From NCBI GenBank assembly GCA_038061835.1, contig JBBTYJ010000015.1, forward strand, positions 3,907 through 67,906: a DNA stretch of 64,000 bases, in the 5' to 3' direction. Made by a program: the position numbers and the translations under genes. The notes under the pieces are model-generated. The model was not told the origin of the DNA and did no database searches. It saw nothing but the letters and a program-made list of their open reading frames with translations. Source of the DNA: Patescibacteria group bacterium (GTDB lineage Bacteria > Patescibacteriota > Minisyncoccia > Phycocordibacterales > Zambryskibacteraceae). Below are positions 502-63,520 of this stretch, piece by piece. How positions within the stretch are numbered: position 1 is the stretch's first letter; each line of letters opens with the position of its first letter.

Positions 502-1104
502 TTATTTAGTCCGATGCAAGAAAGCGTTTTTGAGAGTTTCTGGGTCAGCATACTCAAGTTCAGCACCAGTTGAGAGTCCCTTACCTAAAGTGGTAAATAT
601 CAAGGGTAGCCCTTGATATTTTTGTTTGATAAATTCAGCGGTATTCTCTCCGTCAAGATTGGCGTTCATAGCTAAAATAATTTCTTTAATACTTTTATCA
701 TTCTTGATCCGTGATTCTAAATTCTTGATTCTTATCCTCTTCTCAGGTTCTTTTTCAAGAATCGGGATAACACCTCCTAAAATAAAATAATATCCTTTAT
801 AGCCGCCGCTTCGTTCCACCGCTTCAAAATCAATATCTCTTGGCACAATCATAAGCATTGAATTATCTCTGGAATTATCGGAGCATATGGCACAAATTTT
901 GGATTCATATCCATTCTTAGCGTAATATCGCATGCATTTCTCACATTGGATAATTTCTTTTTTTATACTTTGAATTGCTTTTATTAATTCACTGGCATAG
1001 TCGCCGTTTCTAGAAAGAAGAAAGTACACGAAACGTTTGGCCTGTCTCGGCCCGATACCCGGAAACCGAGCGAATATTTCCGATAATTTATCTATTGAAT
1101 TCAT
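502..1104 (-). CDS. recR: Recombination protein RecR
   Basis: N-terminal HhH FPGIGPRQAKRF, C4 zinc finger (CEKC...CAIC), Toprim-like C-terminus; 200 aa. Confidence 0.9.
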   Translation of the reverse strand: MNSIDKLSEIFARFPGIGPRQAKRFVYFLLSRNGDYASELIKAIQSIKKEIIQCEKCMRYYAKNGYESKICAICSDNSRDNSMLMIVPRDIDFEAVERSGGYKGYYFILGGVIPILEKEPEKRIRIKNLESRIKNDKSIKEIILAMNANLDGENTAEFIKQKYQGLPLIFTTLGKGLSTGAELEYADPETLKNAFLHRTK

Positions 1105-2660: not shown

Positions 2661-2679
2661 AGCAAGGTTAAACCTTGCT
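2661..2679. repeat. REP-like palindrome copy 1 (AGCAAGGTT-A-AACCTTGCT, perfect 9-bp arms)
   Basis: Perfect palindrome read directly; same core as the two copies flanking the RAYT gene. Confidence 0.7.
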
Positions 2680-3013: not shown

Positions 3014-3036
3014 AATATCAAGGTTTAACCTTGCTC
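3014..3036. repeat. REP-like palindrome copy 2 (AATATCAAGGTTTAACCTTGCTC)
   Basis: 23-bp exact direct repeat of copy 3; contains palindrome CAAGGTT-T-AACCTTG; 30 bp upstream of RAYT start. Confidence 0.7.
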
Positions 3037-3065
3037 TAAAGGTCGATTATTGATATAACTTTTGT

Positions 3066-3743
3066 ATGTCCACACGAGTTCCATTTGGCACTGGGGAGTG
3101 GTATCACTGTTACTGTCGTGGCGTTGATAAACGCAAAGTATTTTTAGAATCAAAAGACTATGAAAGATTTATTCTTTCTATGCATGCTGGAAATGGCCCA
3201 TTAGCCGTACATCTCTCAAATATTTTGAGAAATAAAAAATTTAATGAGATTCTTACAACACTTTTTCAGAATGAACATCTGGTTGATATTGGAGCATTTT
3301 GCCTTATGCCAAATCATTTTCACTTACTGCTTAAAGAAGTGGAGGAAGGTGGTATATCGCTTTTTATGCAAAAGGTTTTAACGGGATACACTATGTATTT
3401 TAATGAGAAATATGAGCGGAAGGGTGCCTTATTTGCAAATACCTATAATTCTCGACATATTTTTGATGACAGATACTTTAAGAAAGTTATAGCCTATATA
3501 CATCTGAACCCGGTCGAGTTAGATGAAATAAATTGGAAGGTGGGAAGTGGGGATATTAGAAAAATAGAAAAAAGACTACGTAATTATAAATACTCGAGTC
3601 TCTCTGCCTTTACAGATATCGAAAATCCAAGCAACTCTATTATCTCTGGTTCGGTTTTAGAAATATTTGACTCACTTCCATCAATCAGAGAAATGCTGGC
3701 AGACGCTCAAACTTATTATCAAGAACAAAATATCAAGGTTTAA
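3066..3743 (+). CDS. IS200/IS605-family Y1 (HuH) transposase-like, REP-associated tyrosine transposase (RAYT)-like
   Basis: HuH motif FCLMPNHFHLLL, catalytic-Tyr region YIHLNPV, N-terminal WYHCYCRGVDKRKVF; flanked by REP palindromes; 225 aa. Confidence 0.8.
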   Translation: MSTRVPFGTGEWYHCYCRGVDKRKVFLESKDYERFILSMHAGNGPLAVHLSNILRNKKFNEILTTLFQNEHLVDIGAFCLMPNHFHLLLKEVEEGGISLFMQKVLTGYTMYFNEKYERKGALFANTYNSRHIFDDRYFKKVIAYIHLNPVELDEINWKVGSGDIRKIEKRLRNYKYSSLSAFTDIENPSNSIISGSVLEIFDSLPSIREMLADAQTYYQEQNIKV

Positions 3744-3751
3744 CCTTGCTC
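3729..3751. repeat. REP-like palindrome copy 3 (AATATCAAGGTTTAACCTTGCTC); overlaps RAYT stop codon
   Basis: Exact 23-bp repeat of copy 2; TAA stop of the RAYT gene lies inside the palindrome (GTT TAA CC). Confidence 0.7.
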
Positions 3752-9787: not shown

Positions 9788-9907
9788 TTTATCCAAAAGG
9801 CCGGTCCACCACTTGAAAGTAAAAGTCATCAATAGATAAGCCGGTAGATAGATAGGTACCAAAATAAAAAACAAGATTAGGCGCACTGTCTTCATGAATA
9901 TTTTCAT
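9785..9907 (-). CDS. 40-aa hydrophobic peptide ORF (not in track) whose ATG abuts MITE copy A
   Basis: Translation MKIFMKTVRLILFFILVPIYLPAYLLMTFTFKWWTGLLDK; speculative. Confidence 0.25.
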   Translation of the reverse strand: MKIFMKTVRLILFFILVPIYLPAYLLMTFTFKWWTGLLDK

Positions 9908-9973
9908 CCCGTTAGAAGTTTACTTCTCATAATATTACCACTATGACTCAAACTTGTTGAACTTCTAACGGGA
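9907..9973. mobile_element. MITE-like element copy A (67 bp; 14-bp TIRs TCCCGTTAGAAGTT/AACTTCTAACGGGA; TSD TTCA)
   Basis: Perfect 14-bp terminal inverted repeats, 39-nt interior, TTCA direct repeat at 9903-9906 and 9974-9977. Confidence 0.7.
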
Positions 9974-9974
9974 T

Positions 9975-10245: not shown

Positions 10246-11529
10246 TTAAAGAACCGGTAAGTAAGCAAGAGGATCGAGATACGCATCTCGTCCTTTCGCA
10301 ATCGGGACAAAGACCTGTTTACATCCGATACTGGTAGTGAATTGTCTAATCTCCACACCTTGTGACGCAAAGAGTCCGACGTGGAGATGCGGACCCTTGG
10401 AATACCCCGAACCATTTACTCCAGGCACCCCGCCTGAATAGCCAATCATCTGCCCCACGCTCACCTCTTGACCTTTTGGCACTAATGAAGCAGATAGATG
10501 GGCGTAAATACTCGTTAGGCCATTATCGTGTTTTATTAGTATCCAGCGACCATACGAATAACAGCCTTTCTGGTTATCCGTATTACCAATACCTTCGATT
10601 ACACCAGCAAGCATTGAACGCACCGGAGTACCCATGGAGGCTCGAAAATCAAGACCATTATGAAAACAGTCAGCGCTGCCATAGATACTGCAATCCGACC
10701 TGCCAAAAAGACCTGTAATAAACACATTATCCAAAGGCCAATCCAAAATGCCGCCCTTGGGTTTAGGAAAAAGAGATGGGTCAAGCGTAATACGTAGTTC
10801 TTGTTCCAAGCGATCAAGATCAGCTTCTGACTCTTTCTGTCGCGCTATGTTTGCTTGGATAAGTTTCTGATATTCCACTTCTTTGTTTTTTGTCTCAGTG
10901 AGAAGTTTTGCCTTTGCCTTCTGATTCTCTTCAACGACCGACTTTTGTCCACTTAACTGTCCACGCAAACTCACTTGTTCCTTTTTTATTTTCTCTTTCT
11001 CCATTTTTTGTTGGTTGAGTATCCTACGAGTCTCGCGTAAGGCGGTAATTTCTTCTTCCAGACGAGCATTCAGACCTGCAAGTTGACTCCCATCCCTCCA
11101 AATATCCGATAATCGGATAGAGGCCAGTATTTGGAGGATTAACGGACTAGAATCGTAATCGGATAAGGAAGTGAGAGTATTGGCAATCGCCGCTCTATGC
11201 GTGATAATCTGTTTCTCTTTCTCGCTCATGGCATTCTCAAGCGAACGGATGGTCAAATCGGCGGAAGTAATTTTCGACTGAGTAATGCTGATATCTTTGG
11301 CAAGCTTCTTTTTGGTCGTATCGAGCGATTTAACAGCGCTGCCGAGAGTCTGACTTTCTTTATTGATTTCATCAAGCTCCACTTGAAGCTTCTTCTGTTC
11401 TTCAACGAGCACTTCTCTATCTCTTCTCACCCGTTCTATTTGTTGTTCCAGTTCGCTTGGATTAGCGGCATTTAGGACAAACGGTATAATCAAAAAGATA
11501 ATAAAAATACTAATGAATCTCTTGTTCAT
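10246..11529 (-). CDS. M23-family (LytM-domain) peptidase with signal peptide and long coiled-coil (EnvC-like)
   Basis: HNGLDFRASMGTPVRSMLAGVI...GPHLHVGLF M23 motifs; N-terminal hydrophobic signal; Q/E/K-rich coiled-coil. Confidence 0.85.
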   Translation of the reverse strand: MNKRFISIFIIFLIIPFVLNAANPSELEQQIERVRRDREVLVEEQKKLQVELDEINKESQTLGSAVKSLDTTKKKLAKDISITQSKITSADLTIRSLENAMSEKEKQIITHRAAIANTLTSLSDYDSSPLILQILASIRLSDIWRDGSQLAGLNARLEEEITALRETRRILNQQKMEKEKIKKEQVSLRGQLSGQKSVVEENQKAKAKLLTETKNKEVEYQKLIQANIARQKESEADLDRLEQELRITLDPSLFPKPKGGILDWPLDNVFITGLFGRSDCSIYGSADCFHNGLDFRASMGTPVRSMLAGVIEGIGNTDNQKGCYSYGRWILIKHDNGLTSIYAHLSASLVPKGQEVSVGQMIGYSGGVPGVNGSGYSKGPHLHVGLFASQGVEIRQFTTSIGCKQVFVPIAKGRDAYLDPLAYLPVL

Positions 11530-11595
11530 CCCGTTAGAAGTTTACTGATAATAAAATCTTTACCAAACTTTATGAGAGCTGAACTTCTAACGGGA
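11529..11595. mobile_element. MITE-like element copy B (67 bp; identical TIRs; TSD TTCA)
   Basis: Same 14-bp TIRs; 39-nt interior about 50% similar to copy A; TTCA at 11525-11528 and 11596-11599; sits exactly between the GluRS-like stop and the M23 start. Confidence 0.7.
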
Positions 11596-11596
11596 T

Positions 11597-12475: not shown

Positions 12476-13617
12476 TTCTCTATCTCGTGTTCAAGAGCAA
12501 TTTTAAGAATTTCTTCGGCAATCAAACGCGCGGCGTTTGACTTATAAAATGCTTTGGCTGCTGTTTTCATTTTTTCGCGTTCGATTTCATTTGTAATCAG
12601 CCGTTCAATCTCCGATGCAAGGAGATTAGCCGTAAGATTATTTTCTTCTATTACCTCGCACGCTCCGGCACGAGCGTAGGCAAAGGCGTTCGAATGCTGG
12701 TCATGACTGATTTTTTCATTAATAGGCACGATAATTGACGGTACACTCCAAGACGCGATTTCAAAAATAGTTGAACCAGCGCGCGAAATAACCAAAGAAG
12801 CCACCCCGGCCGCCATGCGCATTGTCAAAACATTAAGATAATCAAGGGCCCTGTATCTCTCTTTATAAAGAGAGTCAAGAAGAACTGCCTCGCTGGTAGC
12901 TCTGACTTCCATAATATTGTTTTTGCCGACCTGATGAATAATTGCGTATTTTTCAACCAAACTCTTAAGATCTTCCAAAATCGTATCATTAATCTTTTGT
13001 GCGCCTTGCGAACCGCCAAGTATTAAAATAACCGGAATATTTTCTTCAATTTTTAAAAATTCGCGGGCGCCTGAAGTGATGGGAAGAGCGATTTCCTTAC
13101 GCACGGGCTGACCGGTATAAGCCACCGCTCCTGCCGGGAAATATCGGACAGCTTCTTTATAAGAAACGGCGACGATCCTGGCAAATTTCCCAGCCCACAA
13201 ATTTGTCTTTCCGGGAATAGTATCGGACTCGTGGATTACCACTGGAATGCGTAAAAGGCGCGCCGCTACCAACGCGGGGAAACTTGCGTAGCCTCCTTTG
13301 CCAAAAACAACATCGGGATAAAGTTTATATACCATGTAGAGCGAGGAAAGAATCCCCCACCCTGTCCTAAATAGATCAACAAAATTAGGGATAAAAATCC
13401 ACCAATGAGCAGAGCGGCGAATTTTGCCTGCACTATTTTTCTTATAGGTAATACCATTTTCAAAGAGTACTCCGGGATTATACGGAGTGGGAGACATATA
13501 AAATAACTCTAGTTCAAGAAGTCTTTTCTCTTTAGTCAGATTATTGAGTTCTTCAGCAATGGAAACTATCGGGTAGAAGTGTCCCCCGGAACCACCACCA
13601 GTAAATAAGATACGCAT
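12472..13617 (-). CDS. murG: UDP-GlcNAc:undecaprenyl-PP-MurNAc-pentapeptide GlcNAc transferase MurG
   Basis: MRILFTGGGSGGHFYP N-terminus, GT28 family pattern; 381 aa. Confidence 0.9.
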   Translation of the reverse strand: MRILFTGGGSGGHFYPIVSIAEELNNLTKEKRLLELELFYMSPTPYNPGVLFENGITYKKNSAGKIRRSAHWWIFIPNFVDLFRTGWGILSSLYMVYKLYPDVVFGKGGYASFPALVAARLLRIPVVIHESDTIPGKTNLWAGKFARIVAVSYKEAVRYFPAGAVAYTGQPVRKEIALPITSGAREFLKIEENIPVILILGGSQGAQKINDTILEDLKSLVEKYAIIHQVGKNNIMEVRATSEAVLLDSLYKERYRALDYLNVLTMRMAAGVASLVISRAGSTIFEIASWSVPSIIVPINEKISHDQHSNAFAYARAGACEVIEENNLTANLLASEIERLITNEIEREKMKTAAKAFYKSNAARLIAEEILKIALEHEIEK

Positions 13618-13694
13618 CCCGTTAGAAGTTAATTTTTATAAACTTGTTGGTAAAAAATATCATGGTAAGTAATTTGAAAAAACTTCTAACGGGA
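13617..13694. mobile_element. MITE-like element copy C (78 bp; identical TIRs; TSD CGCA)
   Basis: Same 14-bp TIRs; 50-nt interior; CGCA direct repeat at 13613-13616 and 13695-13698 (reverse complement TGCG = murG start ATGCG). Confidence 0.7.
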
Positions 13695-13705
13695 CGCATT
13701 GTTGT

Positions 13706-17738: not shown

Positions 17739-18689
17739 TTAATTGCTACTTATATACCGCATTACGGCGTTAACCAATACACGCGCATCGTCAAAACGAC
17801 CTTCCCCGGCAGAAGCACCGAGGATGGAAACAATAATCGGCCGGCCCAATTCCGGGTCAAAGACAAATGCCAGATTGCCGCCGGCAGTATCGGTAAAACC
17901 AGTCTTAGACGCCATAAGTCCAGGAATTTCCGCGACCAAGCTATTGGTATTTTGGGCGACATGCAGATGATTATCCAATGATTGAAAAGTGGTGGTAGCC
18001 TCTTTGGTTGCATCAAAAAAGGCGGGATGATTCGTGAGTATATATTCCAAAAGAGTACTAATATCTTTAGCCGTGCCATAAGCGCCACCCTTCACATTCG
18101 ACTCATCCAAGCCCGTTTCATTCCAAAAATAAGTGTTCTTAAGATTAAGTTCTCGGGCCTTATCATTCATTTCTCCGACGAAATCATTAATAATTTCCGC
18201 AGACGTTGCATTTGCGCTCGAGAGAGCTCCGAGAGACAGGGCTATCGCCCGCACACCATCATTGGATGACGTTAATAGAGAAAAGTCCAAGAGATCCTTA
18301 AGTTTCCAGTGTTCATTTTTGTATAGACCACTATTGCCTTCCGCGTTTAGGGCTTCCTCAGTTACGATAACCGTGCCATACAAAGGACTTAGATCTTCAG
18401 CAATTAAGGCGGACATGATCTTGGTCAGAGAAGCAAGCGAGAGACGCATGTTTTCGTTTTTAGCAAATAAAACGGTTCGAGTTCTTAAATCATAAACGTA
18501 AACCGCTTTTGCCCCGATTGTTATAGGAGGAAAAGAAACGGCAGCCACCCCGGTAGGAACTGATTTATCTTTCCTTTCCACTTTTGTGTTAAAAATTAAA
18601 GAGACTATAAACAAGCACGAAAGAATAATAGCCAAAACAAGAAAAAATCTTATCTCCGTATGACGTATGGTAGAAAATTGATCATTCAT
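17739..18689 (-). CDS. D-alanyl-D-alanine carboxypeptidase (S11, PBP5-like)
   Basis: SLTK (SxxK), SSNDG (SxN) and KTGFT (KTG) motifs; N-terminal TM/signal. Confidence 0.8.
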   Translation of the reverse strand: MNDQFSTIRHTEIRFFLVLAIILSCLFIVSLIFNTKVERKDKSVPTGVAAVSFPPITIGAKAVYVYDLRTRTVLFAKNENMRLSLASLTKIMSALIAEDLSPLYGTVIVTEEALNAEGNSGLYKNEHWKLKDLLDFSLLTSSNDGVRAIALSLGALSSANATSAEIINDFVGEMNDKARELNLKNTYFWNETGLDESNVKGGAYGTAKDISTLLEYILTNHPAFFDATKEATTTFQSLDNHLHVAQNTNSLVAEIPGLMASKTGFTDTAGGNLAFVFDPELGRPIIVSILGASAGEGRFDDARVLVNAVMRYISSN

Positions 18690-18767
18690 CCCGTTAGAAG
18701 CCGCTACTAGTGACTCGCTGATAATAAATGATATTCATAGTTTTGTATATATGAGCTTCTAACGGGA
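18689..18767. mobile_element. MITE-like element copy D (79 bp; TIRs TCCCGTTAGAAGCC/AGCTTCTAACGGGA, 13/14 match; TSD TTCA)
   Basis: TIRs as in A-C with one mismatch at the inner end; 53-nt interior shares CTGATAATAAA with copy B; TTCA at 18685-18688 and 18768-18771; the scpB stop codon TAG lies inside the TIR. Confidence 0.65.
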
Positions 18768-19337
18768 TTCATTTGATTCTGCGGGCGAAGCTTTTTCAAA
18801 CTCCTCTATTTTTTTAAAAGCAACTCGATATTCCGGTAAATCTTCGCGACAAGTGATCCCTAAATGCTCAAAAAGTTTTAGGGTGGGCTTGTAACTATAG
18901 CTCCTCCCCACTCGAACCGTTTCGTCAGGTGAAGCAAGCGTGTCATCGGGACGTTCAATAAGACCTCGAATAAGAAGCGAGCGGAGAATAAAACTTGAAT
19001 TCACCCCGCGAATATGATCGATCTCGCGGCGGGAAATTGGACCCCTGTAGAGAATAATGGCGAGAGTTTCAAGACTGGCGCGACTAAGCTCGCGAGAAAA
19101 TTCTTCTTTGACTAGACTCTCGATAAGATTACCGGCATCTGGATGAGTACCGAGGCCTGCAAATTCGCCATCGAAAACAATGACAATACCCCTGTTTTTA
19201 TAAAATTCTCCCAATTTTGATAACGTGATTCTTATTTCTTCCGGTTTATTGCCGGTTATTTTCGCCAATTCAGAAACAGAAACCGGTTCGTTCTTGAAAA
19301 AAAGTATTGATTCTATTTTTAATTCTAAATTAAGCAT
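18759..19337 (-). CDS. scpB: Segregation and condensation protein B
   Basis: Winged-helix ScpB pattern ...ISRREIDHIRGVNSSFILRSLLIRGLIE; overlaps scpA by 8 nt. Confidence 0.85.
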   Translation of the reverse strand: MLNLELKIESILFFKNEPVSVSELAKITGNKPEEIRITLSKLGEFYKNRGIVIVFDGEFAGLGTHPDAGNLIESLVKEEFSRELSRASLETLAIILYRGPISRREIDHIRGVNSSFILRSLLIRGLIERPDDTLASPDETVRVGRSYSYKPTLKLFEHLGITCREDLPEYRVAFKKIEEFEKASPAESNESR

Positions 19338-29729: not shown

Positions 29730-29800
29730 GGGCCTATAGTTCAGTGGCAGAACGTAGCATTCGCATTGCTGAAACGGCGGTCCGATTCCGCCTAGGTCCA
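29730..29800 (+). tRNA. tRNA-Ala (anticodon CGC)
   Basis: Acceptor GGGCCTA/TAGGTCC with G3:U70, D-stem GTTC/GAAC, anticodon stem TAGCA/TGCTG with loop TTCGCAT, T-stem GGCGG/CCGCC, discriminator A; CCA not encoded. Confidence 0.8.
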
Positions 29801-41503: not shown

Positions 41504-42112
41504 TTAGATTAGAGTCTTAAGTACCTTAAAATCTTCTTTAAGGGTATCGAGCAGATGCTGATTGTAAATTGCGGCAGCGGGGTGATAAAGAGGAATGAAT
41601 TTAAAGGTCAGACCTTGAGAATTTATATCTAAGGTCTGACCTTGGAAGACTTTGCCGTGTAATTTACTTATAGAATCCAGTTCCCATTCAAGACCATATC
41701 TCGTCATCACATATTGCATTGAGAATCGACCGAGCGTTGCTACCACTTTCGGTTTAATAATTTCAATCTGACGATCCAAAAACGGCGCATAGATTTCTAT
41801 CTCGTCGGGATACGGATCGCGATTACCTGGTGGACGATCTTTGACAATATTAGTCACGTACACATCCTTCCTGTCTATGCCAACAGAAGTTAAAAGTATG
41901 TCCAAGACCTTTCCTGCCCGCCCGCAAAACGGCTTGCCGGTCTTGGCTTCGTTTTCCCCTGGTGCCTCGCCGATAAACATTATGTCAGCTGAATGATTTC
42001 CTTCTCCTATTACCGGGAAATACTTGTTCTTTACTCGTTCGGCATAAAGCGGTGAGGCCACAAGACCAATAATCTCGTTCTTAATTTTTTTTAATTCTTC
42101 ATCACAATTCAT
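41504..42112 (-). CDS. Uracil-DNA glycosylase, family 4 type
   Basis: GEGNHSADIMFIGEAPG motif and 4Fe-4S-type Cys pattern; 202 aa. Confidence 0.8.
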   Translation of the reverse strand: MNCDEELKKIKNEIIGLVASPLYAERVKNKYFPVIGEGNHSADIMFIGEAPGENEAKTGKPFCGRAGKVLDILLTSVGIDRKDVYVTNIVKDRPPGNRDPYPDEIEIYAPFLDRQIEIIKPKVVATLGRFSMQYVMTRYGLEWELDSISKLHGKVFQGQTLDINSQGLTFKFIPLYHPAAAIYNQHLLDTLKEDFKVLKTLI

Positions 42113-43669: not shown

Positions 43670-44830
43670 CTATTTGATTATACTATCCATCACTCCGCCG
43701 CCGAGACAAGCGCTTGCGCCATCCTTATCAAGATCGCCGTAAAACACTATTGATTGGCCTAGGGACAATCCGCGCACTGGTTCTCTAAACTCCACCTCCA
43801 CCCTGTCAAAAGCTAAGCTTTTGACAGTAACTGGGAGTTTGTTTCCGCGGTATCGTATTCGGGCAAATAGTTGTCGTGTTTTAAATTCATTGATCCAATT
43901 TACACCCTTAACCACAATTCGTGTCGGTGAATGTAATACCATCTCCAGCTCATTATTTGAAACAGTGAGAGTATTCGCCTTCATATCTTTGGATAAAATA
44001 TAAAACGCTCCTTCCTCCGGTGACCTCTTGGTGATTTCGAAACCGTGTCTTTCTCCTATGGTATAAAGCAAGGCGCCCTTGTGAGTACCGATGATATCGC
44101 CGCGAGTATTTAGTACCTTGCCCGGTTTGGTTTTAATAAAATGAGAAAGAAATTCATCCATCGATACATCGCCGATAAAACAAATCCCCTGACTATCTTT
44201 CTTCTCAGAAACCGGCAGATGATACCTACGGGCCAGTTTTCGCACTTCGCCTTTCTCTAAATCACCGATGGGAAAACATGTATGGGATAAATCATTTTGA
44301 TTGAGAGTCCAGAGAAAATAACTTTGATCCTTTCCTCTATCTTTCCCCTCTTTCAGCAAATATCGATACAGAGGTTTAACCTTTGTAGTCCCAAGGTTAA
44401 ACCTCTGTATTTGAGAATAGTGTCCGGTGGCAATAAAATCTGCCCCCATTTCTCGAGCCTTTTTCCAAAACGCGCCAAATTTAATTTCTCTGTTGCAAAG
44501 CACGTCTGGATTCGGTGTCCGGCCGACCTTGTATTCGGCCACCATCTTGTCCGCTACATCCTTTTTATACTCCTTTTCAAAATCAAAAAAGAGAAACGGG
44601 ATATCAAGCGCAATCGCCACTTTCATCGCATCGCGTCTCTCGTCTCTCCAATTGCAAGGCAAAAAATCCGGTTGCCAGACTTTTATAAATACACCCGTGA
44701 CGTTGTAACCGGCTTTCTTCAAAAGCGCGGCGCTGACCGCGGAATCCACACCTCCAGATAAACCTACAAAAATTTTACGATGAGAGGTATTTGGTAATGT
44801 TTTTTTTATGTTCATCGAAAGTCTTGGCAT
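43670..44830 (-). CDS. mnmA: tRNA-specific 2-thiouridylase MnmA
   Basis: PP-loop SGGVDS, catalytic Cys regions, DQSYFLWTL; carries an in-frame ~10-aa insertion encoded by a REP doublet. Confidence 0.85.
   Translation of the reverse strand: MPRLSMNIKKTLPNTSHRKIFVGLSGGVDSAVSAALLKKAGYNVTGVFIKVWQPDFLPCNWRDERRDAMKVAIALDIPFLFFDFEKEYKKDVADKMVAEYKVGRTPNPDVLCNREIKFGAFWKKAREMGADFIATGHYSQIQRFNLGTTKVKPLYRYLLKEGKDRGKDQSYFLWTLNQNDLSHTCFPIGDLEKGEVRKLARRYHLPVSEKKDSQGICFIGDVSMDEFLSHFIKTKPGKVLNTRGDIIGTHKGALLYTIGERHGFEITKRSPEEGAFYILSKDMKANTLTVSNNELEMVLHSPTRIVVKGVNWINEFKTRQLFARIRYRGNKLPVTVKSLAFDRVEVEFREPVRGLSLGQSIVFYGDLDKDGASACLGGGVMDSIIK
44368..44408. repeat. REP-like palindrome doublet inside mnmA coding sequence (ACAGAGGTTTAACC-13 nt-GGTTAAACCTCTGT)
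   Basis: Perfect 14-bp inverted repeat whose cores (GGTTTAACC / GGTTAAACC) match the REP copies flanking the RAYT gene. Confidence 0.65.
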
Positions 44831-47999: not shown

Positions 48000-50180
48000 T
48001 CAGGTTACAATGCTGACAATTTTCCCAGGTATCATAATAATCTTCTTGGGATTTTTTCCACCAAGCCATTTTTGAACCTCTGACAGAGCCAAGACGTTTA
48101 TTCTTATTTCTTCCTCACTTTGACTGCGAGTAACAAGCAAATTAGCTCTCACCTTACCATCAACTTGCACAGCCAAATTTACTTCATCTTTTACCAATTT
48201 CTTCAAATCGTAAGTCGGCCAACTTTGGACATGAATGGAATCTTTGTGTCCGAGAGATGCCCATAATTCTTCGGTAATATGCGGAGCAAAAGGCGCAAGA
48301 AGTAAAATTAAAGTCTCGAATTCTTTTTGGAAAATTTCTTTTTGCTTATCCAGAGCATTGACGTAGATCATCAGAGCAGACACCGCAGTATTAAATCCCA
48401 TAGACTCTATATCGTCAGATACTTTCTTAATCGTTTGATGCATCAAGGTCTCGCTCTTTAAGGTCAGACCTTTGGAAACTTTGGATTGAAGCCGCCAGAC
48501 CTTCTCCAAAAATCTCCGCGGACCAACAAGCGCATCTTCGCTCCAAGCAATGGCTTGTTCGAATGGACCCATAAACATCTCGTAGAGCCGCAGGGTGTCC
48601 GCACCAAAACGTTCTGCTATAGTGTCGGGATTAATGACATTGCCTTTTGATTTACTCATCTTCTCTCCCCCCTCGGCTAAAATCAGTCCGTGAGAAGTAC
48701 GTTTCTTGTATGGTTCGCTCGTGGGAACAAGTTTCAGATCATAAAGAAATTTGTTCCAAAAACGCGAATATAAAAGATGAAGCACCGTGTGTTCCATACC
48801 GCCGTTATACCAGTCAACCCCGCCATGGCGGGGCAAGTCGCCATCCAGCCAATATTTCAGTTTATCCAGAGATGCAAATTCTCTATCATTAAACGGGTCG
48901 CAATAACGTAGGAAATACCAGGATGATCCGGCCCAATTTGGCATGACGTCAGTTTCCCTTTTGGCTTGTTCATTACAATTTGGACATTTGACATTCACCC
49001 ATTCCGTGATATTAGCAAGCGGAGATTCACCATCCGGTCCAGGTTCATATTTATCCACTTTAGGCAGTTCCACCGGTAAATCTTTTTCCGGTACCGGCAC
49101 AACGCCACACTTGTCACAGTGAATCACCGGAATGGGCTCACCCCAATAACGCTGACGTGAGAAAACCCAATCGCGTAGTTTGTACTTGACGACCCTTTTG
49201 CCAAAATCTTCGAATTTAGCTCTTTGGTATTCCTTAATAATTGCTAAATTATGTTTCTTTGCAAATATCATATCGCGTTCATCATCGGCAGGAACACCCA
49301 TGATAGCGCCGGTACCATAATCAGACATTACATATTCTGCCTCCCAGACCGGAATCTTCTCTTTGGTCGCGGGATTAGTCACGAAGCGACCAGTAAATTT
49401 ATCTTCCTTGCCATTAACCACGACAAAAGTGGCTCCAAAAATCGTATCAGGCCGTGTGGTAAAAATTTCAACATCATCAAATTTAATCAGTACCCCTTCG
49501 CTCCTTCCGATCCAGTTTTTTTGTTGGGTTTTGACTCGTTTCGGATAATCTACGCTGTCTAAATCTTTTTCAAGTCTTTCGGCATATTTAGTAATAGCAA
49601 GCATCCACTGTTCTTTCTCCTTCTGTTCAACAGATGTGCCGCAACGTTCACAACCACCATCAACCACTTCCTCATTGGCCAGACCAATCTTACATTTCGG
49701 ACACCAATTAATTGGAATCTTTGCCTTGTATGCCAAACCTTTTTCAAGAAATTTAAGAAATATCCACTGCGTCCATTTGTAGTATTTGGGATTTGAAGTA
49801 TCAATCTCTCTAGACCAATCAAAAGAGAGGCCTAATCTTTTAAGTTGCGCACGAAAATTGTCTGTATTTTCTTTTGTAATCTCTGCAGGCTGTCTGCCAG
49901 TTTTGATCGCATAATTCTCCGTTGGTAAACCGAATGAATCCCAGCCGATCGGATACAGGACATTAAATCCTTCCATCCATCTTTTACGCGCAATAATATC
50001 CATCGCTGTATAGGCTCTCACGTGACCAAGATGAATCCCCACACCAGATGGATACGGAAACTCTACCAATGCGTAATATTTTGGTTTCTTGGAATTATTG
50101 TTCGCTTGATAGATTCCGGATTTTTCCCACTCTGTTTGCCACTTAGTTTCTATCTCTTTAGGATTATATTCCCTAGCCAT
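48000..50180 (-). CDS. leuS: Leucine--tRNA ligase
   Basis: PYPSGVGIHLGHV HIGH region, CP1 TTRPDT motif, KMSKS; 726 aa. Confidence 0.9.
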   Translation of the reverse strand: MAREYNPKEIETKWQTEWEKSGIYQANNNSKKPKYYALVEFPYPSGVGIHLGHVRAYTAMDIIARKRWMEGFNVLYPIGWDSFGLPTENYAIKTGRQPAEITKENTDNFRAQLKRLGLSFDWSREIDTSNPKYYKWTQWIFLKFLEKGLAYKAKIPINWCPKCKIGLANEEVVDGGCERCGTSVEQKEKEQWMLAITKYAERLEKDLDSVDYPKRVKTQQKNWIGRSEGVLIKFDDVEIFTTRPDTIFGATFVVVNGKEDKFTGRFVTNPATKEKIPVWEAEYVMSDYGTGAIMGVPADDERDMIFAKKHNLAIIKEYQRAKFEDFGKRVVKYKLRDWVFSRQRYWGEPIPVIHCDKCGVVPVPEKDLPVELPKVDKYEPGPDGESPLANITEWVNVKCPNCNEQAKRETDVMPNWAGSSWYFLRYCDPFNDREFASLDKLKYWLDGDLPRHGGVDWYNGGMEHTVLHLLYSRFWNKFLYDLKLVPTSEPYKKRTSHGLILAEGGEKMSKSKGNVINPDTIAERFGADTLRLYEMFMGPFEQAIAWSEDALVGPRRFLEKVWRLQSKVSKGLTLKSETLMHQTIKKVSDDIESMGFNTAVSALMIYVNALDKQKEIFQKEFETLILLLAPFAPHITEELWASLGHKDSIHVQSWPTYDLKKLVKDEVNLAVQVDGKVRANLLVTRSQSEEEIRINVLALSEVQKWLGGKNPKKIIMIPGKIVSIVT

Positions 50181-63291: not shown

Positions 63292-63472
63292 AAATCAAAT
63301 TTGGTGGTCTACGCTTGAAATAGCTCGAACGTTCGCCGCCCCCACCGGCGGCGAAAACCCCAGCGAGAAATTCGGCGCGGCAAAGCCGCACCGCTAACAA
63401 TATCAAATTTTTCTTTGGCGGACTAGATTCGAGCGCGAAGCGCACAATTTTGTTCTTTATGAAAAACAGAAA

Positions 63473-63520
63473 CCGCTCACCAAGATGAGCTGGTGAGCAG
63501 CTTCTGGTGAGCGGTTGATG
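63473..63520 (-). terminator. Rho-independent terminator after GC-rich gene
   Basis: Minus strand CCGCTCACC-loop-GGTGAGCGG followed by TTTCTGTTTTTCAT. Confidence 0.6.

What the first reader, a model, noticed from the sequence alone, without database searches (positions are those of the whole stretch)
44368..44408. REP doublet embedded in frame inside mnmA, encoding a ~10-aa insertion
Inside the mnmA coding region lies a perfect 14-bp inverted repeat, ACAGAGGTTTAACC-13 nt-GGTTAAACCTCTGT. Its cores are the same two REP variants that flank the RAYT gene. It encodes QRFNLGTTKVKPL, in a segment that is ~10 aa longer than the corresponding E. coli MnmA region (between ATGHY and KDQSYFL).

This looks like a REPIN-like insertion into an essential tRNA-modification gene that was tolerated as an in-frame loop. 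It is a rare, directly visible example of REP-driven protein-sequence innovation.
Basis: partly seen in the sequence, partly recalled or inferred. Interest (0 to 1): 0.55.

Follow-up and report, generated by a model that had tools for sequence, protein, structure and literature searches.

The report
In-frame REP doublet inside mnmA
A 45-base palindromic mobile repeat sits in frame inside the tRNA-modification gene mnmA of a Parcubacteria genome and lengthens a surface beta-hairpin; it belongs to a transposase-associated repeat family that sits inside many essential genes of these bacteria, a kind of event already known from Rickettsia and other bacteria.

Summary
mnmA (43670..44830, minus strand) contains a perfect 18-nt inverted repeat with a 9-nt loop (44366-44410), exactly 15 codons (IQRFNLGTTKVKPLY).

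Its 12-nt core AGGTTTAACCTT matches the palindromes flanking a Y1 (RAYT-like) transposase gene at 3066..3743. Related units lie in frame in the UDG gene (doublet, 41604-41643) and in leuS (singlet, 48460-48472).

A metagenome scan found at least 120 contigs with doublets of this unit (AAGGTYWRACCTT). Of 125 doublets, 112 are inverted pairs and 54% lie deep inside long ORFs (LepA, TopA, LigA, RecJ, DnaG, ArgRS and others). In at least 8 contigs, RAYT homologues are flanked by the units.

The mnmA copy is not private to this genome. Orthologues about 75% identical carry it with nucleotide-identical arms. The same hairpin tip holds at least 7 other palindromes with co-varying cores in related lineages, while close sisters have the empty 15-aa form.

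Verdict: a REPIN-like element tolerated as a beta-hairpin extension. Intragenic REP dimers and Rickettsia RPEs are known precedents, so this is a new member of a known kind, here in Patescibacteria.

The parts
44366..44410 (-). REPIN-like doublet in frame in mnmA. Arms at 44366-44383 and 44393-44410, loop at 44384-44392. Encodes IQRFNLGTTKVKPLY (residues 141-155).
43670..44830 (-). mnmA (tRNA 2-thiouridine synthase), intact 386-aa ORF hosting the doublet.
3066..3743 (+). Y1/HUH (IS200-like, RAYT-like) transposase gene, 225 aa. HUH motif NHFHLLL and the YIHLNPV tyrosine motif are present. Its TAA stop codon lies inside the downstream REP.
3015..3036 (+). REP unit ATATCAAGGTTTAACCTTGCTC immediately upstream of the transposase gene.
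3730..3751 (+). Identical 22-nt REP unit overlapping the 3' end of the transposase gene.
2662..2678 (-). REP unit GCAAGGTTAAACCTTGC in inverted orientation, about 390 nt upstream of the transposase gene.
41604..41643 (-). Second in-frame doublet (AAGGTCAGACCTT - 14 nt - AAGGTCTGACCTT) in the family-4 UDG gene (41504..42112). Encodes QGQTLDINSQGLTF. Absent from six orthologues.
48460..48472 (-). Single REP unit AAGGTCAGACCTT in frame in the leuS linker (gene 48000..50180). Encodes KGLTL. Orthologues carry 1-3 units at this site.

Best explanation
The 45-nt palindrome is a copy of a REPIN-type element: two inverted copies of a short hairpin-forming REP unit. The element family is associated with, and probably mobilised in trans as single-stranded hairpin DNA by, a RAYT-like Y1/HUH transposase such as the one at 3066..3743. 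These Parcubacteria genomes have almost no intergenic space. Copies therefore persist mainly where an in-frame, stop-free addition of 27-54 nt is structurally harmless. In mnmA that place is the tip of the beta-hairpin between ATGHY and KDQSYFL. The arms encode two antiparallel strands (QRFNL / KVKPL) that lengthen the hairpin by about 13 residues compared with the empty 15-aa form. The mnmA copy was not acquired in this genome. It is shared with orthologues at about 75% aa identity, and its arms are kept strictly Watson-Crick complementary. The site is a recurrent landing or retention spot, occupied in other lineages by other REPIN variants and apparently exchanged between lineages in short recombination patches.

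Shown: the palindrome, its family membership, its dispersal, the association of the unit with transposase genes, the filled/empty polymorphism, and the modelled hairpin location.

Inferred: mobilisation by the RAYT, neutrality of the insert, and the recombination route.
For: Shared core with the transposase-flanking REPs; 8 palindromes of the class against 0.58 expected. In-frame copies in UDG and leuS in the same window.

Metagenome scan for AAGGTYWRACCTT-N3-25-AAGGTYWRACCTT: at least 120 contigs, where I estimate roughly 0.5 by chance (my own calculation, not a tool result). Of 125 doublets, 112 are inverted pairs and 67 lie deep in long ORFs falling into about 28 protein clusters. Ten hosts were confirmed by Pfam: LepA, TopA, ComM-like Mg-chelatase, ArgRS, LigA, RecJ, an HhH-GPD glycosylase, trigger factor, PheRS-beta and DnaG.

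tblastn with the window transposase finds homologues in 14 loci. In L182, L093, L178, L097 and L100 units or doublets lie on both sides of the gene; in L152, L125 and L171 on one side.

mnmA: 47 of 120 homologues have the 15-aa empty form. At least 7 other insert types at the same codon position and frame are DNA palindromes with 14-24 nt arms. 10 of 18 stem pairs change on both sides and 92% of cells are paired; 0 of 500 shuffles reach the observed score. Several of these cores also occur in other genes. The L091 loop GGGAATCGTATT recurs in doublets in unrelated contigs.

Filled/empty sister pairs at 93% and 96.7% nt identity differ by +36 nt.

The AF2 model shows strands 138-148 and 153-161 with the turn at 149-152.
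Against: No transposition event is directly seen. Filled and empty alleles differ by replacement of about 4 codons, with clustered mismatches within about 60-100 nt, not by a clean insertion.

The window transposase scores below the NCBIfam RAYT cut-off (46.6 against 80 bits). In the window it is flanked by single units in direct orientation, as an IS200-like element would be.

The outer stem of the mnmA copy differs from the transposase-flanking units. No other copies of several mnmA core types (ATTAT, GTTCC, CCCTCCC) were found in the DNA available.

The metagenomic loci were selected for containing doublets, so RAYT adjacency is not an unbiased estimate.

The structure model has only moderate confidence (mean pLDDT 67). 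The position of the hairpin tip relative to bound tRNA was not measured.
Confidence: 0.8

Rival explanations
1. One ancient palindromic insertion in mnmA has been inherited vertically and evolved in place. Its two arms are kept complementary by intramolecular template switching (quasipalindrome correction) or by selection for a DNA/RNA hairpin. On this view the different cores in different lineages are co-varying descendants of one event, not separate insertions.
For: All insert types share position, frame and an outer-stem consensus TAC(A/C)(G/A)AGG...CCT(Y)(K)GTA. 10 of 18 pairs change on both sides. The arms have 10/10 identical codons between orthologues whose other conserved codons are only 44-64% identical, and L083's two changes are mutually compensating. 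A second, length-neutral perfect palindrome in mnmA (43803-43827) is unique to this genome and looks like an in-place origin.
Against: Filled and empty alleles are interspersed down to sister pairs at 93-97% nt identity, and the same type occurs in separate clades. The unit, and even whole loops, recur in about 28 unrelated gene families. The TTCGA, TCCGA and L078 cores of mnmA inserts occur in other genes. The window core equals the transposase-flanking REP.
Confidence: 0.12
2. The hairpin is a selected functional element of the host, for example an mRNA structure that slows the ribosome between folding units, or a binding site for a DNA-binding protein. Its resemblance to the REPs would reflect co-option.
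For: Stable fold: RNA -28.4 kcal/mol (z = -4.3) and DNA -18.7 kcal/mol (z = -6.2). The arms are conserved at the nucleotide level. Several intragenic copies lie at domain boundaries: in LepA after the GTPase domain, in ComM between Mg_chelatase and its C-terminal domain, in RecJ before the OB domain.
Against: There are no G-U intermediates in the 14 core pairs; the only G-U cells are in the two outermost pairs, so complementarity is strict Watson-Crick as expected for DNA copies. Close relatives function with the empty allele. Frames and orientations of the unit differ between genes and even at the same leuS site. No Rfam family matches.
Confidence: 0.05
3. The palindrome is coincidental coding sequence with no relation to the repeats near the transposase.
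For: Only 11-12 nt are shared with the transposase-flanking units, and the peptide forms a regular beta-hairpin.
Against: An 18-nt perfect inverted repeat is expected about 3e-5 times per window. The motif class is enriched 8 against 0.58. The unit is dispersed in at least 120 contigs. Empty alleles exist.
Confidence: 0.01

Closest known systems
Intragenic REP dimers (GTAG-/CGTC-tagged REPs; Di Nocera et al. 2013, PMC3733652)
   Same: Short palindromic units, mostly as inverted dimers, found in frame inside known genes. That paper reports dimer or grouped inserts of 20 to 30 aa; the mnmA insert here is shorter (13-15 aa). The host genes are enriched for replication, repair, tRNA synthetase and ligase functions. 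The units are often next to tyrosine transposase genes (REPtrons). Occasional same-site occupancy in orthologues is reported (recB in Xanthomonas).
   Different: No GTAG or CGTC tag in the flanks. The unit is only 13 nt. The host is Patescibacteria rather than Proteobacteria or Verrucomicrobia. About half of the doublets are intragenic, rather than a small minority.
REPIN-RAYT systems (Bertels & Rainey 2011, PMC3116915; Nunvar 2010; Ton-Hoang 2012)
   Same: Two inverted REPs form a longer hairpin. A Y1/HUH transposase gene is flanked by the same REPs. The family is dispersed and has sequence variants.
   Different: Classical REPINs are extragenic and are described mainly in Gammaproteobacteria. 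The transposase here is a distant relative, below the NCBIfam cut-off. Single-copy status and population size could not be assessed.
Rickettsia palindromic elements (RPE; Ogata et al. 2000, as summarised in PMC10969869)
   Same: Selfish palindromic repeats inserted in frame in many unrelated housekeeping genes of a reduced genome, at positions compatible with protein fold.
   Different: RPEs are about 100-150 bp, with no sequence similarity to this family, no associated transposase known, and a different phylum.
IS200/IS605-family insertion sequences
   Same: Y1 transposase flanked by subterminal hairpins in direct orientation; no target-site duplication. This resembles the 737-bp unit at 3015-3751.
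   Different: IS200 elements do not generate dispersed 40-nt inverted doublets. Other contigs show the gene flanked by doublets.

Membership tests
REPIN-RAYT system | Y1/HUH tyrosine transposase (HUH motif plus catalytic Tyr) | tested here: met
   Pfam Y1_Tnp 33.2 bits, above the gathering score of 23. NHFHLLL and YIHLNPV are present in the translation; assigning these as the HUH and Tyr motifs rests on my knowledge of the family.
REPIN-RAYT system | Transposase scores as a RAYT with the curated model (NCBIfam NF047646) | tested here: not met
   46.6 bits against a cut-off of 80. This is the best and only NCBIfam hit, so the protein is a distant relative.
REPIN-RAYT system | Transposase gene flanked by the REP units that are dispersed in the genome | tested here: met
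   In the window, units at 2662-2678, 3015-3036 and 3730-3751. Units or doublets lie on both sides of the homologue in L182, L093, L178, L097 and L100, and on one side in L152, L125 and L171.
REPIN-RAYT system | Repeats occur as inverted doublets able to form a long hairpin | tested here: met
   112 of 125 doublets are inverted pairs. The mnmA stem is 18 bp.
REPIN-RAYT system | RAYT is single-copy per genome with a large REPIN population in the same genome | not testable with these tools
   Only 64 kb of the source genome is available. It holds 1 transposase gene and 8 units.
REPIN-RAYT system | Extragenic location | tested here: not met
   67 of 125 doublets lie deep inside long ORFs. In the window, 5 of 8 units are intragenic.
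GTAG/CGTC-tagged REP superfamilies | Conserved GTAG or CGTC tetranucleotide at one end of the palindrome | tested here: not met
   Flank composition of 125 doublets shows no conserved tag. The mnmA copy ends in ...CTGTAT.
Rickettsia palindromic elements | 100-150 bp element of an RPE family in Rickettsia | tested here: not met
   The element is 45 nt and the host is Parcubacteria. The behaviour is analogous, but it is not a member.
MITE (TIR-type) | Terminal inverted repeats with target-site duplication | tested here: not met
   Filled/empty comparisons show no duplication; about 4 codons are replaced.
Known structured RNA (Rfam) | Match to a curated covariance model | tested here: not met
   The only Rfam hit in the window is a tRNA at 29730-29800.

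The most novel reading that the evidence does not exclude
The MnmA hairpin tip, and likewise the LeuRS linker and the UDG hairpin, is a true integration or replacement hot spot. Successive REPIN variants land on or convert a resident REPIN there. They then spread between Parcubacteria lineages by short-patch homologous recombination, using the highly conserved coding flanks as homing arms. If so, in genomes without intergenic space REPINs would live mainly inside essential genes and continually remodel protein surface loops.
Probability: 0.25. Interest if true: 0.7.

Novelty: new member of a known kind. Interest (0 to 1): 0.5.

Why it matters
REPs and REPINs are by name extragenic. Here a transposase-associated REP family in the ultra-compact genomes of Parcubacteria (CPR) sits about half the time inside essential genes, in frame. 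It repeatedly occupies the same structurally permissive spots: the MnmA hairpin tip, the LeuRS linker and the UDG hairpin.

This extends the Rickettsia RPE and intragenic-REP phenomenon to a new phylum. It offers a natural map of insertion-tolerant sites in conserved enzymes. It may explain part of the lineage-specific insertions seen in CPR proteins. It also provides filled/empty allele pairs with which REPIN gain, loss and recombination can be studied in metagenomes.

It does not reveal a new kind of system.

Tried and rejected
- Chance palindrome: rejected by simulations and motif enrichment.
- Known RNA family: Rfam found only a tRNA.
- Lineage-specific insertion private to this genome: rejected, since L081, L082 and L083 share it.
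- Clean transposition footprint or target-site duplication in filled/empty pairs: not found. Tip codons are replaced and mismatches cluster around the indel.
- Searching each relative's 6-21 kb locus for extra copies of its own mnmA core: mostly empty, apart from the window and L078. Pooling all 2.2 Mb of loci later gave copies for three core types but none for ATTAT, GTTCC or CCCTCCC.
- Conserved flank tag (GTAG/CGTC or a target tetranucleotide): none.
- RNA-level selection as the main cause of pairing: disfavoured, because G-U cells are confined to the two outermost pairs.
- Literature on REPs or MITEs in Patescibacteria: nothing relevant in the held library.
- Not run: a homologue search for the transposase, a fold search of the model against the PDB, and extension of the source contig. 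I judged them not decisive.

Full report
**Observation.** The window carries, on the minus strand, a 386-aa ORF (43670..44830) that is MnmA: Pfam tRNA_Me_trans HUP, PRC-barrel and beta-barrel domains, and E=5e-82 to E. coli MnmA 2DER over residues 16-383. Inside it the reported inverted repeat is present. It is longer than described: perfect 18-nt arms at 44366-44383 and 44393-44410, with a 9-nt loop. That is 45 nt, exactly 15 codons, reading IQRFNLGTTKVKPLY. In Markov-1 simulations of the window, a perfect inverted repeat of at least 14 nt with a loop of at most 30 nt appears 0.013 times per window. The analytic expectation for 18 nt is about 3e-5. The strand folds at -28.4 kcal/mol as RNA (z = -4.3) and -18.7 kcal/mol as DNA (z = -6.2).

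**Link to the transposase.** The ORF at 3066..3743 is a Y1/HUH transposase. It scores 33 bits on Pfam Y1_Tnp, above the gathering score. Its only NCBIfam hit is 'REP-associated tyrosine transposase', at 46.6 bits, below the cut-off of 80. The HUH motif (NHFHLLL) and the YIHLNPV motif are present. The gene is flanked by two identical 22-nt copies of ATATCAAGGTTTAACCTTGCTC (3015-3036 and 3730-3751). The second copy supplies its stop codon. A third copy lies inverted at 2662-2678. The mnmA arms share the 11-12 nt core AGGTTTAACCT(T) with these units, but the outer stem differs. Palindromes of the form AGGxy-n-y'x'CCT occur 8 times in the window against 0.58 expected. Besides the three transposase-flanking copies and the two in mnmA, there are two more sites. 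One is a doublet in frame in the family-4 UDG gene (41604-41643; QGQTLDINSQGLTF). The other is a single unit in frame in leuS (48460-48472; KGLTL). The UDG/leuS core (TCAGA) differs from the transposase-flanking core (TTTAA) by one compensatory pair.

**The family is dispersed and largely intragenic.** I scanned the metagenome collection for AAGGTYWRACCTT-N3-25-AAGGTYWRACCTT. I estimate roughly 0.5 matches by chance; this is my own calculation, not a tool result. Most come from groundwater assemblies.
- In 815 kb there are 125 doublets. Of these, 112 are inverted pairs, the REPIN architecture.
- 67 doublets (54%) lie at least 15 codons inside ORFs of at least 120 aa.
- In the first 80 loci, the 39 such ORFs form about 28 protein clusters.
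- Ten hosts were confirmed with Pfam: LepA, topoisomerase I, a ComM-like Mg-chelatase, ArgRS, NAD-ligase, RecJ, an HhH-GPD glycosylase, trigger factor, PheRS-beta and DnaG primase. The doublets often sit at domain boundaries.
- No GTAG or CGTC tag, or other conserved flank, exists.
- tblastn with the window transposase finds homologues in 14 loci. Units or doublets lie on both sides of the gene in L182, L093, L178, L097 and L100, and on one side in L152, L125 and L171. These loci were selected for having doublets, so this shows association, not frequency.

**History of the mnmA copy.** The host is a Parcubacteria/Paceibacterota (Zambryskibacteria-like) bacterium. Among 120 close MnmA homologues, the segment between ATGHY and KDQSYFL is 15 aa (consensus ARIEKGQLKEGKDKE) in 47. 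In many others it is 19-45 aa. E. coli has 19 aa and the window 28 aa.

Orthologues at 74-80% aa identity (L081, L082, L083) carry the same element at the same codons. In the window, L081 and L082 the arm codons are identical (10/10), whereas other conserved residues use the same codon only 44-64% of the time (pairwise P from 5e-4 to 1e-2). L083's two changes (CAG to CAA, CTG to TTG) compensate each other. L084 has lost the left arm. L082 looks like the 15-aa form plus 18 aa.

Other lineages have different palindromes at the same position and frame. Their cores are ATTAT (L088), GTTCC (L087), TTCGA (L086), TCCGA (L091), CCCTCCC (L085, 24-nt arms) and others (L078, L051, L008). On an alignment of seven of these elements, 10 of 18 stem pairs change on both sides and 92% of cells pair. 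None of 500 shuffles reaches the observed score. The only G-U cells are in the two outermost pairs. That pattern fits complementary DNA copies rather than selection on an RNA fold.

On a neighbour-joining tree with the segment masked, filled and empty alleles are interspersed, and the same type appears in separate clades. Two sister pairs are informative: L088/L089 at 93% nt identity and L091/L090 at 96.7%. Each pair differs by exactly +36 nt. About four tip codons are replaced by sixteen, and mismatches are concentrated within about 60-100 nt of the indel, while neighbouring stretches have 0-1 mismatch per 60 nt. This looks like a short imported patch rather than a clean transposition footprint.

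Three of the mnmA core types also occur in other genes. TTCGA occurs as a doublet in the L089 leuS linker, TCCGA occurs in L144, L175 and L211, and the L078 palindrome has a second copy in another ORF of the same locus. The loop of the L091 insert (GGGAATCGTATT) recurs in doublets on unrelated contigs. The site has therefore been occupied by members of several dispersed families, not by one insert drifting in place.

**The other two genes.** The UDG doublet is present only in the window genome: 28 aa against 19 aa in six orthologues. L084 has a different 9-aa insert at the same hairpin. The leuS linker holds one unit in the window (KGLTL) and in L081 (KGQTL), two in L167, and three in L082, L115 and L119. 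L119 reads part of the element in another frame.

**Structure.** An AlphaFold2 model built from 62 homologues (mean pLDDT 67, moderate confidence) shows residues 138-148 and 153-161 as two long antiparallel strands, with the turn at 149-152. The DNA hairpin thus encodes an extension of a protein beta-hairpin at its tip. I did not measure its position relative to bound tRNA.

**Interpretation.** The best-supported explanation is a REPIN-like element of a Y1-transposase-associated family that persists in frame at a structurally permissive tip. Mobilisation by the transposase is inferred from the association and from what is known of RAYTs. It is not shown here.

Three rivals remain.
- A single ancient insert maintained by template switching. 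This is partly compatible with the data, and a length-neutral palindrome at 43803-43827 that is unique to this genome hints that such processes act here.
- A host-selected hairpin.
- Coincidence, which is excluded.

**Comparison with what is known.** In-frame REP dimers in repair, replication, ligase and tRNA-synthetase genes, next to tyrosine transposases, were described by Di Nocera et al. 2013 (PMC3733652). Rickettsia RPEs are the classic case of in-frame palindromic repeats (PMC10969869). Searches of the held literature gave nothing for Patescibacteria. The finding is therefore a new member of a known kind. Its unusual features are a very high intragenic fraction, an untagged 13-nt unit, and recurrent occupancy of the same site in MnmA.

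Noticed in passing
window 9906-9974, 11528-11596, 13614-13697, 18688-18768: A second, unrelated repeat family: four inverted pairs of ATCCCGTTAGAAGTT with 39-51 nt between the arms. Each fills an intergenic gap between genes. There are 8 matches against 0.16 expected.
   Followed up: partly
window 43803-43827 (inside mnmA): A perfect 12+1+12 palindrome, CTGTCAAAAGCT-A-AGCTTTTGACAG, encoding TVKSLAFDR. It is unique to this genome and replaces an equal-length segment (e.g. VILSLVGSR) in orthologues, so it arose without an insertion. This may be a template-switch product.
   Followed up: partly
window 595-621 (inside recR, ORF 502..1104): The palindrome AAATATCAAGGG-TAG-CCCTTGATATTT shares ATATCAAGG with the transposase-flanking REPs. 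It encodes KYQGLPLIF, with no obvious length change compared with my recollection of the E. coli RecR sequence; this was not checked with a tool.
   Followed up: partly
window 3741-3743 / 3730-3751: The stop codon of the Y1 transposase ORF is the TAA inside the downstream REP unit (AAGGTTTAACC), so the REP supplies the last four codons (NIKV) and the stop.
   Followed up: yes
MnmA homologues P0004-P0009, P0071, P0080, P0098; L092 (LepA ORF): Another in-frame repeat family, AT-rich, encoding peptides such as NSQFPINESISNENS..IENS. It occupies the same MnmA hairpin tip in some lineages and also occurs in a LepA gene.
   Followed up: no
L084 6047-6130 (UDG orthologue): A different, GC-rich 9-aa insert (DINFSAEDGPASGG) at the same UDG hairpin that holds the doublet in the window. 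The UDG site also appears to be occupied recurrently.
   Followed up: no
L140 2543-2579 and 3872-3908: One 571-aa ORF of unknown function carries two separate doublets of the family.
   Followed up: no
window 63471-63516: A 12-nt perfect inverted repeat, AACCGCTCACCA...TGGTGAGCGGTT, with a 22-nt spacer inside an open frame. It is unrelated in sequence to the REP family and was not examined further.
   Followed up: no
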